Positions 456-7,424 of a stretch of 15,173 bases of DNA are shown piece by piece. Location: the UHGV virus genome UHGV-0105671. One strand, given 5' to 3'. A model generated the notes under the pieces. It saw nothing but the letters and a program-made list of their open reading frames with translations, ran no database searches and was not told where the DNA came from. Origin of the DNA: a virus. The translations under genes and the position numbers were made by a program. The stretch's first letter is position 1, and every line of letters starts with the position of its first letter.

Positions 456-871
456 AAGCTGTGTGACGAAGTGACCACTCTTAATAGCATAACCAATTTT
501 TTACGTACGTAAACCACTAAATGATATTTGCGAGAATGCTACCGAGTATTGAAAACACCACTACAAATACATAAGCAAATCTCAACAAATAACCAACAGT
601 GTTATTTTTAGCCGGTTTAAATTGAACCTTCAAATTATAGAGCACTTATAAATAACAGACATTAATATAAATTGGCTAATAGATTTATTTTTATTCAGCC
701 AAGAGCCATGAATAGGATTCGATAGAAAAAAGTTCAGATAAAAATAGAGATCTACTTCACAAATCAAACGAGAAACCAAAACTTACATCTTGAAATAATC
801 ACATTGATTAGATGAATATTTATCGCGCAGTGACATCATTTTTTAATAATAGTTCAAAAAAAGGGCTCACG

Positions 872-1954
872 ATGAAAAAATTAACAGTGGCAATTTCTGC
901 TGTAGCTGCATCAGTACTGATGGCGATGTCTGCTCAGGCAGCTGAAATTTATAATAAAGACAGTAACAAGCTGGATCTGTACGGGAAAGTTAATGCTAAG
1001 CACTACTTCTCCTCTAATGATGCAGATGATGGTGATACTACTTATGCCCGTCTTGGCTTCAAAGGTGAAACCCAAATCAACGATCAACTGACTGGTTTCG
1101 GTCAGTGGGAATATGAATTCAAAGGCAACCGCGCTGAATCTCAAGGTTCCTCCAAAGATAAAACCCGTCTTGCCTTCGCTGGCCTGAAATTCGGTGACTA
1201 CGGCTCCATCGATTACGGCCGTAACTACGGTGTAGCATACGACATCGGTGCGTGGACTGACGTCCTGCCAGAATTCGGTGGTGACACTTGGACTCAAACC
1301 GACGTGTTCATGACTCAACGTGCAACTGGTGTTGCAACTTATCGTAACAACGACTTCTTTGGTCTGGTCGATGGCCTGAACTTTGCTGCTCAGTATCAGG
1401 GTAAAAATGACCGCACTGACGTAACTGAAGCCAATGGTGATGGTTTCGGTTTCTCCACTACTTATGAGTATGAAGGATTCGGCGTGGGTGCAACCTATGC
1501 TAAATCAGATCGCACTGACGGTCAGGTCGCCTATGGTAAGAGCAAATTCAATGCCTCCGGCAAAAATGCGGAAGTATGGGCTGCAGGCCTGAAATATGAT
1601 GCGAACAATATCTATCTGGCTACCACATATTCTGAAACTCAGAATATGACCGTTTTTGGTAATAACCATATTGCAAACAAAGCACAAAACTTTGAAGCAG
1701 TAGCACAATATCAGTTTGACTTCGGTCTGCGCCCATCTGTTGCTTACCTTCAGTCAAAAGGTAAAGACCTTGGTGTTCATGGTGACCGAGACTTAGTCAA
1801 GTATGTCGATGTCGGTGCTACTTACTACTTTAATAAAAACATGTCCACTTTTGTTGATTACAAAATCAACTTAATTGACGATAGTAAGTTTACCAAAACA
1901 GCTGGTATTGATACCGACGACATCGCCGCTGTAGGTCTGGTTTATCAGTTCTAA
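872..1954 (+). CDS. nmpC: General bacterial porin (OmpC/NmpC/OmpD family), prophage-borne moron
   Basis: 361-aa product starting [23 protein letters not shown] (signal peptide ending AQA-AE), with porin motifs and the C-terminal ...VGLVYQF beta-barrel signature. AAGGG Shine-Dalgarno before ATG 872; the ORF-track start at 812 is an unsupported upstream extension. Lies between Q and the lysis genes on the opposite strand, as recalled for DLP12 nmpC. Symbol assigned by family and position, not by alignment. Confidence 0.9.
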
Positions 1955-2142: not shown

Positions 2143-2526
2143 TCAATTAGAATTATTAGCAACGATATCCATATCTAACCGGATATCTAATGTCATTAAC
2201 ATCCCTTCAATTATGCCCTCAGCCTTCTGTAACCTTTTCCCGATATAACCATCCGAGCAGCAATGCTTACTTGCCAGTGACATGAATGTCATACCACATA
2301 CATAATAATCTACTAATAAATCGTGTAAATCGCTGTTGTTCTTTTTCAGACGGGCCATGCACCCGCAAATGATCATCGCGTCATCGTCACAACATTGCAG
2401 GCGAGATTTTACTTTTGAAGGAATTAATCCCTTAAAACCGGCAGCAATGGACGACCAGGTCACATCCTCATGATTATTTGCCGCCCATGCACCCCAGCGT
2501 TCAAGAACCATCTGAATATCACGCAT
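2143..2526 (-). CDS. Late-gene antitermination protein Q (small 82/DLP12-type Q family)
   Basis: 127-aa product from ATG 2526 (GGAG Shine-Dalgarno 7 nt upstream); the ORF-track TTG start at 2541 is less likely. Cys-rich segment ([16 protein letters not shown]) typical of zinc-binding Q proteins. Position is last gene of the rightward-type operon, before a terminator and the lysis cassette. Confidence 0.8.
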
Positions 2527-2543
2527 CAACTTTCTCCACAAAA

Positions 2544-3539
2544 TCAGGACAGCACACCAATCGCCAGCGCGCGATCGATAAAACGAAATATCAGCTCCAG
2601 TTGGGAACCATACTTCTCTTCAAATGCCACGGTATCCGCATGCAGTTCGTCATGGTGTTTTCTGCACAAAGGCAACACAAAAAGGTCATGCGCTTTTGTA
2701 CCCATTCCACCCTGACCATGACCAATCAGGTGGTGGGCATCATCAGCAGGCTTTCCGCAACATGCGCACGGCTGCGTCTTAACCCAGCGCGTGTACTTTT
2801 CATTAACCCAGCGGCGACGTTTTGGGCGTAACATAAAAGACTCCGGCGACTCCGGATCCACTTTCAGCGCCAGCACCTTTTTCGCTTTATCCTGGATGAT
2901 GCTGGTGGCAGGAACCGAAGGCACAAGATCACTTTCCCGGGTGACAGACGGCACAACAGGCTTCGGTAATCTCAGTGCCTTACGGGCTGCACTTTCCGGT
3001 AAGGCATCCGCCAGATCATTACGAATCAGCCACCAGCACAGTTCAGGCATTGTCACAACGTGACTGTCATCAAAACCGAGATCCCGACGCACAACAGACA
3101 ACACCCAGCGGGCACAGTTATCCGTTGCCATTGATTCCAGCCGTTCCGTGAACTGATCGCGCAACTGGTTATCGCAGTGCCAGCACAGACGGATTGCGCC
3201 CGGCGCGTGTCGCATTGTTGTCATGTTCTCGCTGTGCCAGCCGGAATGAGGCCACTGACAGCCCTTTTCACGAAGTAACCAGCTTTCAAGACATTCCACA
3301 CCACCAGCACGACGGATCACTGCCTCATTGCGGAACACGGCCCGAACGGCAGGATCATCCGCCAGCGGTTGTGATGCCGCCGGAACGGCACCACTGGCGA
3401 AAGATGAATAACGCTCCGGCTCAGGCTCCAGCAGGACACGCCCCTGCATAAACAGGGGCATCAGCTCTGAACCGGGTCTGAACAATACGATCCCCATACG
3501 CGGGGCAATTTCAGGGGTCAGTAGTGCTCTCACGGTCAC
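2544..3539 (-). CDS. DUF968-family prophage protein with C-terminal Cys/His HNH-like motif
   Basis: 331-aa ORF; C-terminal [18 protein letters not shown]...[10 protein letters not shown] resembles a zinc-binding HNH-like core. A DUF968 gene next to Q is recalled from the Qin prophage (YdfU). GTG start at 3539 sits directly after the upstream TGA with no clear Shine-Dalgarno, so the start is uncertain (alternative ATG at Met15). Confidence 0.6.
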
Positions 3540-3540
3540 C

Positions 3541-4338
3541 TCAATGAACGGTATCGAGCAGCTTTAACAGCTCAGGGAATCGGGATTCGAAGAAGTGTGG
3601 CTGCGTCTCGCGCGGATTTGCGGGACTGGTGATGTTCTTGCCGAACATGCAGCCTTTCGCTGTCAGCGACCAGAATTTTTTGATGTTGTTAATCGCGGTA
3701 CGGCTGTATCGTTCGCGTTGTTCAACGATCCCCAGCTTCACCATCTGGTGATATGCCTGATTAGCCGTCAGGCGGATACCATACTGTTTCAACAGTGCAC
3801 TCAGTGACAGTGTCGGGCGACTTGAGCCATCGTGTGCATCAGCAGGAGCATCAATGGCATAGCGCGGTGCCAGATTCGGTAAGCCAACAGCCTCCTGAAG
3901 CTTCTGACAGGCTCCAAGCACTGATGAGTTAGACAGATTTAATTCCCGGCGCATAAAGTCCAGCAGGATCACGCCAGCCTGCATCTTGTCAGCAGCCTGT
4001 CCGGATAATTTTTCCGGTGCGCTGGTTACCATGTCGAAAGTACGGATCACCTTCAGATGGAATGACGGGCTGATCCACATTGCATAGGCATACACCAGTT
4101 CTTTGCAGACATACGTCCCCTGGTTATTTCCGCCACGAATAACGTTAACTGGCTCTATATTGACCGAGTTGCAAATCTGCAACTCGCTTATTAAACGCTC
4201 AGTTTGCTCATTGCGGAGCCAGAATGCAGGCTTATGCTTATCCAGAGAACCAGCAGCCCTATGCAGATCGTTCAGGCTGTAACGCCCATAAGCATCACGA
4301 CGAACTTCAATACCATCAATGACCATCAGATTATTCAT
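3541..4338 (-). CDS. KilA-N domain protein (antirepressor-like or BstA-like architecture)
   Basis: N-terminal MNNLMVIDGIEVRRDAYGRYSLNDLHRAAG...KPAFWLRNEQTERLISEL matches the KilA-N fold pattern. GAGGAG Shine-Dalgarno precedes ATG 4338 (the track start at 4371 would overlap rusA). The C-terminal ~150 aa are unassigned. Confidence 0.7.
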   Translation of the reverse strand: MNNLMVIDGIEVRRDAYGRYSLNDLHRAAGSLDKHKPAFWLRNEQTERLISELQICNSVNIEPVNVIRGGNNQGTYVCKELVYAYAMWISPSFHLKVIRTFDMVTSAPEKLSGQAADKMQAGVILLDFMRRELNLSNSSVLGACQKLQEAVGLPNLAPRYAIDAPADAHDGSSRPTLSLSALLKQYGIRLTANQAYHQMVKLGIVEQRERYSRTAINNIKKFWSLTAKGCMFGKNITSPANPRETQPHFFESRFPELLKLLDTVH

Positions 4339-4357
4339 ACTTCGTTTCTCCTCTTGA

Positions 4358-4747
4358 TCAGGCGGCTGCACCCGCCGTTTTCTCGTACTTACTGATAGTG
4401 ATCTCGACCTTCCCTTCCGGGATAACCGGTCCCCACTCCACCAGCATTCTTTTCACCTGGCTGTCGTCTTCCCACACACCCGCGTGGGTCAGGGCGTCAA
4501 ACAGCGCCTTGTTATAGTTGTCCAGATCGCGGATCCGGTTATCCGGAGGAAACAACACGATCTCCACTGAAGCAGGTGCCGACGTTGGTTTTGGCAGACG
4601 ACGTAACTGCTCAACTATTGCTGCACACGCCGCGCTCTGGAATTTTCGCCCCGCCGCGCTTATCAGGCTCTTACCTGCAAACGCCCCTTTGTTGGGGTGT
4701 CGCCAGTACGTGTTCACGCTGGGCGGAAAAGGCAGAATCAGCTTCAT
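4358..4747 (-). CDS. rusA: RusA-family Holliday junction resolvase
   Basis: 129-aa product with the conserved core ...DLDNYNKALFDALTHAGVWEDDSQV... matching the RusA catalytic aspartate region as recalled. ATGA overlap with the upstream gene stop. Confidence 0.8.
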   Translation of the reverse strand: MKLILPFPPSVNTYWRHPNKGAFAGKSLISAAGRKFQSAACAAIVEQLRRLPKPTSAPASVEIVLFPPDNRIRDLDNYNKALFDALTHAGVWEDDSQVKRMLVEWGPVIPEGKVEITISKYEKTAGAAA

Positions 4748-5070
4748 ACTTTCAGGCCTCTCTCATGTAACCAGTGAGCTGCACGCAGCCTGGCGTTCAC
4801 CTCACCGGCAAGCAGTGCGCGGATAATCCCGACCGCCTCGCTGTCGTCGTCCTTCACCGCGGTATGAAGCGTGATCCCCCGGGCCACGCCACGCTTTATC
4901 GTGATGACGCCTTTTTTCTCCAGTGCGCGAAGATGCTCCACCGCTGTATTCACTGAACGGTATCCCAGCATGGTTGCCACCTCCTGATTGGTTGGCGGGA
5001 AGCCACGTTCTTTCTGATAAGAAATCAGCATATCCAGCACCTGCTGCTGGCATTGAGTTAACGTCGTCAT
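4744..5070 (-). CDS. LexA N-terminal DNA-binding-domain-like winged-helix protein lacking the S24 peptidase domain
   Basis: 108 aa; MTTLTQCQQQVLDMLISYQKERGFPPTNQEVATMLGYRSVNTAVEHLRALEKKGVITIKRGVARGI parallels the LexA N-terminal domain (recalled as [58 protein letters not shown]). No Ser/Lys autoprotease region. ATGA coupling at both ends. Confidence 0.6.
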   Translation of the reverse strand: MTTLTQCQQQVLDMLISYQKERGFPPTNQEVATMLGYRSVNTAVEHLRALEKKGVITIKRGVARGITLHTAVKDDDSEAVGIIRALLAGEVNARLRAAHWLHERGLKV

Positions 5071-7203: not shown

Positions 7204-7424
7204 GCCGCACCTCCGAGATGCTTCATGTTTTTTCCGGAGCGAAAGGCTATAAGCGGCATACTGACGCGGTAATTACGGCCCAGCGGTTCACAAACCACCT
7301 TCTGACATTCACGGTCAACCAGGCTAACACGTAGAACATGCCCTGCAGGCGTGGTGTACCACTGACCCGGACGAGGACAACGGAAAGTCTGATTGGTAAA
7401 ACGTTTGAAAATATTCCGGATCAT
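7200..7424 (-). CDS. Hypothetical small protein (74 aa)
   Basis: ATGA overlaps with both flanking genes and an AGGTAAGGGGG Shine-Dalgarno upstream. No recognisable motif. Confidence 0.4.
   Translation of the reverse strand: MIRNIFKRFTNQTFRCPRPGQWYTTPAGHVLRVSLVDRECQKVVCEPLGRNYRVSMPLIAFRSGKNMKHLGGAA

What the first reader, a model, noticed from the sequence alone, without database searches (positions are those of the whole stretch)
3541..4338. KilA-N domain protein between rusA and Q: antirepressor or BstA-like abortive-infection candidate
A KilA-N N-terminal domain joined to an unassigned C-terminal ~150 aa is the architecture recalled for the BstA family of prophage abortive-infection proteins, as well as for Ant-type antirepressors. 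Its position inside the coupled early-right operon rather than beside the repressor favours a regulatory role, but a defence function cannot be excluded from sequence alone.
Basis: inference. Interest (0 to 1): 0.45.

Follow-up and report, generated by a model that had tools for sequence, protein, structure and literature searches.

The report
Common prophage KilA-N early regulator gene
This is a real but ordinary and very common lambdoid-prophage early gene: it encodes a two-module, probably DNA-binding protein of the shuffled Ant/Roi/KilA regulator class, and no test supports the suggested link to the BstA anti-phage defence family.

Summary
The gene is real. It lies at window 3541-4338 on the minus strand and encodes 265 aa, with a solid Pfam KilA-N domain at residues 7-105. 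It sits in the rightward early operon between rusA and a DUF968/HNH gene that precedes Q.

The BstA reading fails every test I could run:
- It does not match the PADLOC BstA model, which scores authentic BstA at 412 bits.
- BLASTP and profile-profile comparisons are insignificant.
- It is about 5 kb from the repressor and has no promoter or terminator of its own.

The classical antirepressor reading is only partly right. The C-terminus is not a KilAC/ANT domain. It is a domain absent from Pfam: a helical hairpin, a conserved loop, then a basic winged-helix-like fold ending in an NPRETQPH motif. In other phages this domain is fused to Rha, Bro-N, KilA-N, AntA, ORF6N or P22_AR_N heads, which are the antirepressor/regulator domain-shuffling set.

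The closest characterised analogue by position and architecture is HK022 Roi. The family (phrog_129; SfV orf44, ST64B Sb46) occurs in about 42% of complete E. coli genomes and has not been characterised experimentally.

The most likely function is a delayed-early DNA-binding regulator or accessory factor of lytic growth. Interest is low to moderate.

The parts
3541..4338 (-). Whole gene: a 265-aa KilA-N domain protein of the phrog_129 family (SfV orf44, ST64B Sb46, cdtI orf50)
   Evidence: ORF and translation. phrog_129 full-length match, E 9.6e-129. RefSeq WP_001061404.1. AF2 model with mean pLDDT 89.5.
4024..4338 (-). N-terminal KilA-N domain (residues 1-105), a putative DNA-binding module. 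Its alleles are swapped between otherwise identical genes.
   Evidence: Pfam PF04383, E 2.2e-26. N-terminal identity is 45-100% among 80 loci whose C-terminus is at least 98% identical.
3886..4023 (-). Helical hairpin (residues 106-151). It may be a linker or oligomerisation element; that role is an inference.
   Evidence: AF2 predicts helices 110-133 and 137-151 with pLDDT about 90.
3811..3885 (-). Conserved loop (residues 152-176) carrying LPxYAIDAP...GSSxPT
   Evidence: Y160 is invariant. P158, D163, S172, S173 and T176 are conserved in at least 90% of 95 diverse members. pLDDT is lower here, 69-83.
3544..3810 (-). Basic C-terminal globular module (residues 177-265). It has a winged-helix-like helix-helix-beta-hairpin core, then a second beta-hairpin carrying YGKN...NPRETQPH, then a C-terminal helix. 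It is not in Pfam.
   Evidence: AF2 pLDDT 95-98. Weak PadR hits in 21 of 84 members plus other winged-helix families. pI 10.0. 811 cluster representatives at E<=1e-3. R210, G233 and N235 are invariant.
4339..4357 (-). 19-nt junction with upstream rusA. It contains the ribosome-binding site and shows no promoter.
   Evidence: Sequence. No promoter-like site upstream of the gene on the minus strand.
2544..3539 (-). Downstream DUF968/HNHc_6 gene. Its ribosome-binding site overlaps the stop codon of the KilA-N gene, and it is a conserved neighbour.
   Evidence: Pfam. Sequence. DUF968 is directly downstream in 72 of 74 assessable viral loci, and also in SfV, ST64B and Franconibacter.
4358..4747 (-). 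Upstream RusA Holliday-junction resolvase gene, a conserved neighbour
   Evidence: Pfam RusA. RusA is directly upstream in 76 of 76 assessable viral loci.
2143..2541 (-). Q antiterminator (quuD-like), the last gene of the early-right operon
   Evidence: Pfam Phage_antitermQ, E 2.9e-53. RefSeq quuD.

Best explanation
The gene encodes a delayed-early protein of an E. coli lambdoid prophage. It is transcribed from the rightward early promoter as part of one tightly packed operon: cro-like, cII-like, Rha/Ash, replication, PerC, Dam, LexA-DBD, RusA, KilA-N, DUF968, Q. It is therefore made during lytic growth or induction, not in the quiescent lysogen.

The protein has two nucleic-acid-binding-type modules:
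- an N-terminal KilA-N domain;
- a basic C-terminal winged-helix-like module, joined to the N-terminus by a helical hairpin and a strongly conserved loop.

It belongs to the combinatorial class of phage early regulators and antirepressors (P1 KilA, HK022 Roi, phi24B/P22 Ant). In this class a 'head' domain (KilA-N, Bro-N, Rha, AntA, ORF6N or P22_AR_N) is joined to interchangeable 'tail' domains. Here the tail is a family not yet in Pfam, rather than KilAC.

The most likely mode of action is sequence- or structure-specific DNA binding that tunes the lytic programme, as Roi does in HK022. That could mean effects on early-to-late gene expression, on replication, or on relief of repression. The protein is probably accessory rather than essential.

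Shown: the domain anatomy, operon position, family membership and domain-shuffling partners. Inferred: DNA binding, timing of expression and the regulatory role.
For: Anatomy:
- KilA-N at E 2e-26.
- Confident AF2 models, pLDDT 89.5 and 91.3.
- The C-terminal module gives recurrent weak PadR/GntR/MarR-type winged-helix hits: 21 of 84 members for PadR.
- The only weak Foldseek resemblances are winged-helix proteins.
- The C-terminal module has pI 10.0.

Class:
- Among 95 diverse proteins sharing the C-terminal module, the heads are Phage_pRha 32, Bro-N 18, KilA-N 11, AntA 8, ORF6N 5 and P22_AR_N 1.
- HK022 Roi is Rha+ANT, P1 KilA is KilA-N+ANT and phage 2851 Ant is ORF6N+P22_AR_C.
- HK022 Roi lies upstream of rusA and Q. 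Phage 2851 Ant and Roi lie upstream of ninG and Q.

Expression context:
- The gene is 19 nt after rusA, and its stop codon overlaps the ribosome-binding site of DUF968.
- No flanking promoter-like or terminator-like site is seen.
- There is no LexA box nearby.
- The gene order is identical in SfV, ST64B and Franconibacter prophages.
- Distant members also sit in co-directional early or replication operons.

Precedent: deleting the nin-region ant of phi24B lowers late-promoter output on induction to 27-56% of wild type, and this is complemented in trans (PMC3064807). Roi is implicated in HK022 lytic growth (PMC3430580).

Database label: phrog_129 is annotated 'transcriptional regulator'.
Against: No member of this exact family has been studied experimentally, as far as four literature searches on KilA-N proteins, BstA and Roi show.

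The invariant polar residues (Y160, D163, S172, S173, T176, R210, K234, N235, E244, Q246, H248) are more than a plain DNA-binding fold needs. They could mark an enzymatic or protein-binding site.

P1 KilA, the closest homologue of the N-terminal domain, is known (from my own knowledge) mainly for killing the host when expressed, not for regulation.
Confidence: 0.55

Rival explanations
1. It is a protein-binding antirepressor. Made early after induction or infection, it binds and inactivates a CI-type repressor, either its own or that of a co-resident prophage. This locks in lytic development or cross-induces neighbouring prophages, as P22 Ant, phi24B Ant and the Gifsy antirepressors do.
For: The same C-terminal module is fused to AntA, ORF6N and P22_AR_N heads, which are typical of antirepressors. 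A nin-region antirepressor that boosts late expression exists in phi24B (PMC3064807). Some phage records annotate relatives as 'anti-repressor Ant'. Trans-acting antirepressors are documented (PMC3121763, listed).
Against: There is no homology to the domains of characterised antirepressors: ANT, P22_AR_C and P22_AR_N are all absent. There is no LexA box or separate immunity-type control. Because the gene lies in the pR operon, it is made only after repression has already been lifted. Both modules look like DNA-binding folds.
Confidence: 0.2
2. It is a BstA-like abortive-infection or inter-phage exclusion protein. A KilA-N head would sense replicating foreign phage DNA and a C-terminal effector would abort the infection.
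For: The gross architecture is the same: a KilA-N(-like) head plus an unassigned tail of about 150 aa (PMC8585504). A short motif resembles BstA residues 213-239 (W..L..YG...PHxYxxxF). For it, hhalign gives P 0.014-0.05, and 1 of 150 column shuffles reaches the observed score. There is also a weak PADLOC hit to the candidate system PDC-S22, over the KilA-N core only.
Against: There is no hit to the PADLOC BstA profile, whereas BTP1 BstA scores 412 bits. BLASTP gives E 0.48. An HMM of the C-terminus scores about 0 bits on 50 BstA homologues. BstA C-termini give no winged-helix hits, unlike this family. The gene is not downstream of cI, has no terminator or promoter of its own and is embedded in the lytic early operon. 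BstA, by contrast, is expressed in the lysogen from the immunity region. No aba-like element was seen at the gene start.
Confidence: 0.05
3. It is a host-takeover or toxic factor, or an enzyme. Like P1 KilA it would harm or reprogramme the host when expressed. Alternatively, the conserved polar residues of the C-terminal module form a catalytic or ligand-binding site that works with the adjacent DUF968/HNH nuclease.
For: P1 KilA is the best-known KilA-N protein (46% identity over the head). The polar residues are invariant or nearly so. DUF968 is directly downstream in 72 of 74 loci. It is also directly downstream of a Rha-headed protein carrying the same tail in an unrelated contig.
Against: No enzyme family is detected by sequence or fold. 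DUF968 adjacency is absent in 8 other diverse contexts, so the link may only reflect a shared lambdoid cassette.
Confidence: 0.15

Closest known systems
HK022 Roi (also the Roi of Stx phages 2851 and phi24B)
   Same: Both are nin-region genes just upstream of rusA/ninG and Q in lambdoid phages. Both are about 240-265 aa. Both have a shuffled N-terminal 'head', a helical linker and an HTH-type C-terminal 'tail'. Roi is reported as a DNA-binding protein affecting lytic growth (Clerget & Boccard 1996, cited in PMC3430580; details are from my own knowledge).
   Different: Roi is Phage_pRha + KilAC/ANT. This protein is KilA-N plus a tail not in Pfam. There is no detectable sequence homology in either half (hhalign probability 0.4% for the tails).
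Phage P1 KilA
   Same: The N-terminal KilA-N domains are homologous (46% identity over residues 2-101; Pfam). Length (266 aa) and two-module layout are similar.
   Different: The P1 KilA tail is KilAC/ANT PF03374, which this protein lacks. P1 kilA lies in the C1-controlled lytic replicon operon, next to repL, not in a lambdoid nin region.
BstA (Salmonella prophage BTP1; PADLOC PDLC02356)
   Same: Both have a KilA-N-type head plus an unassigned tail of about 150 aa, and both are prophage-encoded.
   Different: There is no family-profile match and no significant similarity in the tail. BstA sits downstream of cI with its own terminator, is expressed in lysogeny and carries an aba element at its start. 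None of these applies here.
phi24B / phage 2851 / P22 Ant antirepressors
   Same: These are nin-region accessory genes of lambdoid Stx phages (phi24B, 2851) made of shuffled head and tail modules. phi24B Ant enhances late gene expression on induction. The ORF6N and P22_AR_N heads also occur fused to this protein's tail in other phages.
   Different: 2851 Ant is ORF6N + P22_AR_C. It shares no domain with this protein.
SfV orf44, ST64B Sb46, cdtI orf50, mEp460, APSE-2 gene G (phrog_129)
   Same: These are true full-length homologues (38-99% identity). In the enterobacterial phages the gene order dam, orf42, rusA, this gene, DUF968, Q is the same.
   Different: None in kind. All are annotated 'unknown', 'KilA-N domain protein' or 'transcriptional regulator', with no experimental data found.

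Membership tests
Pfam KilA-N (PF04383) | Match to the family HMM above the gathering threshold | tested here: met
   92.2 bits against a cut-off of 23.8, E 2.2e-26, residues 7-105.
phrog_129 (SfV orf44 / ST64B Sb46 family) | Full-length match to the family profile | tested here: met
   E 9.6e-129. Residues 1-263 match profile positions 2-268 of 273. tblastn shows 75-99% identity to cdtI orf50 and other coliphages and to Salmonella phage 118970_sal3. The C-terminal 109 aa are 87-100% identical in SfV, ST64B, cdtI and mEp460.
BstA abortive-infection family | Match to the BstA family profile (PADLOC PDLC02356), or significant sequence similarity to BstA | tested here: not met
   No BstA hit at E<=1. 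The positive control, BTP1 BstA, scores 412.5 bits. BLASTP E 0.48. Full-length hhalign probability 3.5%.
BstA abortive-infection family | [quoted passage not shown] | tested here: met
   Canonical KilA-N. In BstA the domain is detectable only by HHpred, and Pfam does not find it.
BstA abortive-infection family | BstA-type C-terminal domain (BstA residues ~156-307) | tested here: not met
   hhalign probability 1-3%, P 0.014-0.05. HMM scores are about 0 bits on 50 homologues. Only a 27-column motif resembles BstA, with 1 of 150 shuffles reaching the observed score. Winged-helix Pfam signals are present here and absent in BstA tails.
BstA abortive-infection family | Located downstream of the cI repressor as a lysogeny-expressed unit with its own terminator | tested here: not met
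   The gene is about 5 kb from the cI-like gene, on the opposite strand, inside the early-right operon. It lies 19 nt after rusA and its stop codon overlaps the DUF968 ribosome-binding site. No terminator-like site follows it.
BstA abortive-infection family | Cognate anti-BstA (aba) DNA element overlapping the gene start | tested here: inconclusive
   No inverted repeat or other distinctive element was found at the 5' end. The BTP1 aba region was read for comparison. aba sequences are family-specific, so absence cannot be proven from sequence.
BstA abortive-infection family | Confers abortive infection against heterologous phages | not testable with these tools
   Requires expression and phage challenge.
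KilAC/ANT antirepressor-type proteins (PF03374: P1 KilA, P1 Ant1, HK022 Roi) | C-terminal KilAC (ANT) domain | tested here: not met
   No ANT hit at E<=1. ANT appears in only 2 of 84 C-terminal segments, at E 0.16. Profile-profile hhalign against a 121-sequence KilAC alignment gives probability 0.4%, E 0.15. P1 KilA and Roi score 112-113 bits as controls.
Antirepressors (functional class) | Binds and inactivates a phage repressor | not testable with these tools
   No sequence proxy exists. There is no LexA box or separate immunity control near the gene.
Bro/KilA/Rha/Ant domain-shuffling class of phage regulators (Iyer, Koonin & Aravind 2002; from my own knowledge, paper not held) | One of the class's head domains, joined to a tail that recurs with the other head domains | tested here: met
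   The tail is found with Phage_pRha (32), Bro-N (18), KilA-N (11), AntA (8), ORF6N (5) and P22_AR_N (1) among 95 diverse members.
PadR-like winged-helix DNA-binding domains | Match to a winged-helix family profile, or structural similarity to one | tested here: inconclusive

The most novel reading that the evidence does not exclude
The roughly 95-residue C-terminal module (GSSxPT...YGKN...NPRETQPHWY) is a previously undescribed effector or sensor domain of phage early proteins. It may be very distantly related to the BstA C-terminal domain through the shared W..L..YG..PHxYxxxF motif, and it may act together with the adjacent DUF968/HNH nuclease. In that reading, this abundant nin-region gene pair would be an inter-phage competition or DNA-targeting device used during lytic growth, rather than a transcription regulator.
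Probability: 0.07. Interest if true: 0.7.

Novelty: new member of a known kind. Interest (0 to 1): 0.25.

Why it matters
The practical value is mainly negative. A KilA-N head plus an unassigned tail is not enough to call a gene BstA-like. This very common gene, present in about 42% of complete E. coli genomes and also in Stx2, SfV and ST64B phages, should not be listed as a defence candidate on that basis.

On the positive side, the work defines a tail domain that Pfam lacks. It has about 800 cluster representatives and six alternative heads, and could be added to domain databases. The work also identifies an uncharacterised, highly conserved nin-region block (RusA, KilA-N protein, DUF968, Q) in medically relevant prophages. 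Its effect on induction and on late-gene (including toxin) expression can be tested directly, as was done for phi24B Ant.

Tried and rejected
- BstA membership was rejected by the PADLOC profile with a positive control, BLASTP, hhalign, an HMM against 50 BstA homologues, and genomic context.
- KilAC homology of the tail was rejected by hhalign against a 121-sequence KilAC profile and by Pfam scans.
- Sequence searches of the PDB found nothing for BstA or for the family profile.
- The BstA motif resemblance was followed up with a column-shuffle null (1 of 150 reach the observed score). I judged it a lead, not evidence.
- A functional link between the tail and DUF968 was considered. It was not upheld in 8 other diverse contexts.
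- An intragenic 8-bp palindrome (4166-4185) was considered as a Roi-like self-binding site. It is confined to one N-terminal allele, so I dropped it.
- A LexA-box scan found no site near the gene.
- Iyer 2002, Clerget & Boccard 1996 and Strauch 2008 could not be read because they are not held.

Full report
**Observation**

The window is part of an E. coli lambdoid prophage. The cI-like repressor is at 9453-10079 (+). A long minus-strand early-right operon runs from a cro-like gene to Q. An OmpC-like porin follows, and a CPS-53-like early-left arm (yfdP, yfdQ, yfdR) lies on the other side.

The reported ORF is real. It lies at 3541-4338 on the minus strand, starts at an ATG preceded by AGGAGA, and encodes 265 aa. 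RefSeq annotates the same ORF as WP_001061404.1, 'KilA-N domain-containing protein'. Pfam KilA-N covers residues 7-105 (E 2.2e-26, 92 bits against a cut-off of 23.8). Nothing in Pfam or NCBIfam covers residues 106-265.

RusA ends 19 nt upstream. Downstream, the stop codon overlaps the ribosome-binding site of a DUF968/HNHc_6 gene, which is followed directly by Q. So the gene lies between rusA and DUF968, one gene away from Q. No promoter-like site precedes it on the minus strand and no terminator-like site follows it. The only LexA-box match in the window is 4 kb away.

**How common it is**

The DNA is found in 2293 of 5426 complete E. coli genomes, with up to 4 copies per genome, and is always annotated as a KilA-N domain protein. 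Full-length homologues occur in phages 2H10, Kati, cdtI (orf50), Stx2c and Stx2a phages, and Salmonella, Vibrio and APSE phages. The C-terminal 109 aa are also 87-100% identical in mEp460, SfV (orf44), SfII, SfIV and ST64B (Sb46).

The protein matches phrog_129, labelled 'transcriptional regulator', over its whole length at E 1e-128. The gene order dam, LexA-DBD protein, rusA, this gene, DUF968, Q is the same in SfV, ST64B and a Franconibacter prophage. In 80 IMG/VR contigs, RusA is directly upstream in 76 of 76 assessable cases and DUF968 directly downstream in 72 of 74. Four literature searches on KilA-N proteins, BstA and Roi found no experimental study of this family.

**Anatomy**

AlphaFold2 gives confident models for the full length (pLDDT 89.5) and for residues 106-265 (pLDDT 91.3). 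The predicted parts are:
- the KilA-N domain (residues 1-105);
- a helical hairpin (residues 110-151);
- a less confident but strongly conserved loop (residues 152-176) carrying LPxYAIDAP...GSSxPT;
- a compact module (residues 177-265) of two helices, a beta-hairpin, a second beta-hairpin carrying YGKN...NPRETQPH, and a C-terminal helix.

Y160, R210, G233 and N235 are invariant across 95 diverse members. A dozen further, mostly polar, positions are conserved in at least 90% of them. The last module is basic, with pI 10.0.

An exhaustive HMMER search with residues 106-265 finds 811 cluster representatives. When 84 C-terminal segments are scanned on their own, 21 give sub-threshold PadR hits. 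Others hit GntR, Replic_Relax and further winged-helix families (HTH_34, HTH_45). This matches the helix-helix-beta-hairpin topology and the weak winged-helix Foldseek hits.

No significant structural neighbour was found in the PDB or BFVD. I therefore treat the tail as a winged-helix-like domain not in Pfam, with an extra conserved beta-hairpin motif. The winged-helix call is probable, not proven.

**What class it belongs to**

Among 95 diverse proteins that share the tail, the N-terminal heads are Phage_pRha (32), Bro-N (18), KilA-N (11), AntA (8), ORF6N (5) and P22_AR_N (1). This is the combinatorial head and tail behaviour of the phage KilA/Bro/Rha/Ant regulator class (Iyer et al. 2002; from my own knowledge, as the paper is not held).

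Characterised relatives in architecture are:
- P1 KilA (KilA-N + ANT);
- HK022 and phage 2851 Roi (Rha + ANT);
- phage 2851 Ant (ORF6N + P22_AR_C).

Roi, and Ant in the Stx phages, occupy the same nin-region slot upstream of rusA or ninG and Q. Module exchange is visible even within E. coli. Proteins whose linker and tail are 97-100% identical carry KilA-N heads only 45-77% identical. The mosaic junction therefore lies at the domain boundary.

Distant members sit in co-directional early or replication operons of prophages and phages.

**Test of the BstA idea**

BstA is defined by four things (PMC8585504):
- a KilA-N-like head found only by HHpred;
- a distinct C-terminal domain;
- a position downstream of cI with expression in the lysogen;
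- an aba element overlapping its start.

The results for the candidate are as follows:
- The PADLOC BstA profile scores BTP1 BstA at 412 bits but does not hit the candidate at E<=1.
- BLASTP gives E 0.48.
- I built a 50-sequence BstA alignment from IMG/VR loci. hhalign against the tail profile gives probability 1-3% and P 0.014-0.05.
- An HMM of the tail scores about 0 bits on all BstA homologues.
- BstA tails give no winged-helix Pfam signals.

All methods align the same 27 columns, W..L..YG..PHxYxxxF, and only 1 of 150 column shuffles reaches the observed score. I record this as an unexplained resemblance, not as homology. The local hhalign set-up also failed to link the two KilA-N heads (probability 0.3%), so its sensitivity is limited.

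Position and expression logic also differ from BstA. The candidate lies in the lytic early operon, has no transcription signals of its own, and shows no aba-like element at its start.

**Test of the KilAC idea**

A 121-sequence KilAC profile built from P1 KilA relatives gives hhalign probability 0.4% against the tail. Pfam ANT appears in only 2 of 84 tail segments, at E 0.16. So the tail is not KilAC, although it plays the same architectural role.

**Mechanism**

The best-supported reading (confidence about 0.55) is a delayed-early, DNA-binding accessory regulator of lytic development, analogous to Roi. It would be made only after derepression of pR. It would use the KilA-N head and the basic winged-helix-like tail to bind DNA, and the helical hairpin may mediate oligomerisation. 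It would tune early-to-late expression, replication or relief of repression. The phi24B precedent supports this: deleting a nin-region ant lowers pR' output to 27-56% of wild type, and the defect is complemented in trans.

The rivals are:
- a true protein-binding antirepressor (0.2);
- a host-toxic or enzymatic factor, possibly acting with DUF968 (0.15);
- a BstA-like defence protein (0.05).

**Verdict**

The BstA alternative is not supported, and the Ant/KilAC alternative holds only at the level of class. The gene is an ordinary, abundant, already annotated but uncharacterised prophage gene. The only modestly new point is the definition of its tail as a distinct, widely shuffled domain missing from Pfam. 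Interest is 0.25.

Noticed in passing
window 3541-4338 (junction near 4023/4024); loci L093-L172: There is an intragenic mosaic junction at the domain boundary. Eighty viral contigs share a tail at least 98% identical, but their KilA-N heads range from 45 to 100% identity (15 identical, about 40 at 65-70%). The DUF968 gene downstream stays above 90% identical.
   Followed up: partly
L091:2923-4721 (and L092): A Rha-headed protein (P0204) whose tail is only 43% identical to this one is also directly upstream of a DUF968 gene, with overlapping stop and start, followed by an antiterminator. This hints at a tail-DUF968 linkage. It was not seen in 8 other diverse contexts.
   Followed up: partly
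window residues 220-255 of the protein (about 3574-3681) versus L002 BstA residues 213-239: A short motif is shared with the BstA C-terminal domain (W..L..YG, an 8-aa gap, then PHxYxxxF). BLASTP, local hhalign and the tool's hhalign all picked the same columns. P is 0.014-0.05, and 1 of 150 shuffles reaches the observed score. It is unexplained.
   Followed up: yes
window 4166-4185: A perfect 8-bp palindrome with a 4-nt spacer (GAGTTGCA-AATC-TGCAACTC) lies inside the KilA-N coding region. It is present only in loci carrying the same head allele (20 of 80 viral loci, plus L001), so it is probably just coding sequence.
   Followed up: partly
window 4744-5070 (-): A 108-aa protein consists only of a LexA DNA-binding domain (PF01726, E 4e-19) and has no S24 peptidase domain. 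It lies just upstream of rusA and is conserved in SfV (orf42) and Franconibacter prophages. It could be a non-cleavable LexA mimic.
   Followed up: no
window 2544-3539 (-): The DUF968 protein has a weak HNHc_6 nuclease match in its C-terminal part (E 7e-7). It is a constant neighbour between the KilA-N gene and Q, and its function is unknown.
   Followed up: no
window 812-1954 (+): An OmpC-like porin gene with its own terminator (2093-2110) lies between Q and the lysis genes, on the opposite strand. It resembles nmpC of DLP12 and lc of PA-2 (that comparison is from my own knowledge).
   Followed up: no
window 7421-8569 (-): A long ORF combines Phage_ASH (residues 117-211) and Phage_pRha (residues 222-307). 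RefSeq calls a shorter Rha protein plus an overlapping DUF4222 gene here. A terminator-like site at 8155-8138 (-) lies inside this ORF.
   Followed up: no
L001:1465-1962 (-), outside the window: The closest complete relative carries a second, unrelated KilA-N protein (KilA-N + ORF11CD3, 165 aa) downstream of the lysis genes. One prophage can therefore hold two KilA-N proteins with different tails, in early and late regions.
   Followed up: partly
L083:3033-5726 (APSE-2): In APSE-2 three head/tail proteins sit in tandem in the early region: gene G (KilA-N plus this tail), P43 (Bro-N head) and P42 'Roi' (Rha head). The tails of P43 and P42 do not match this family's HMM.
   Followed up: partly
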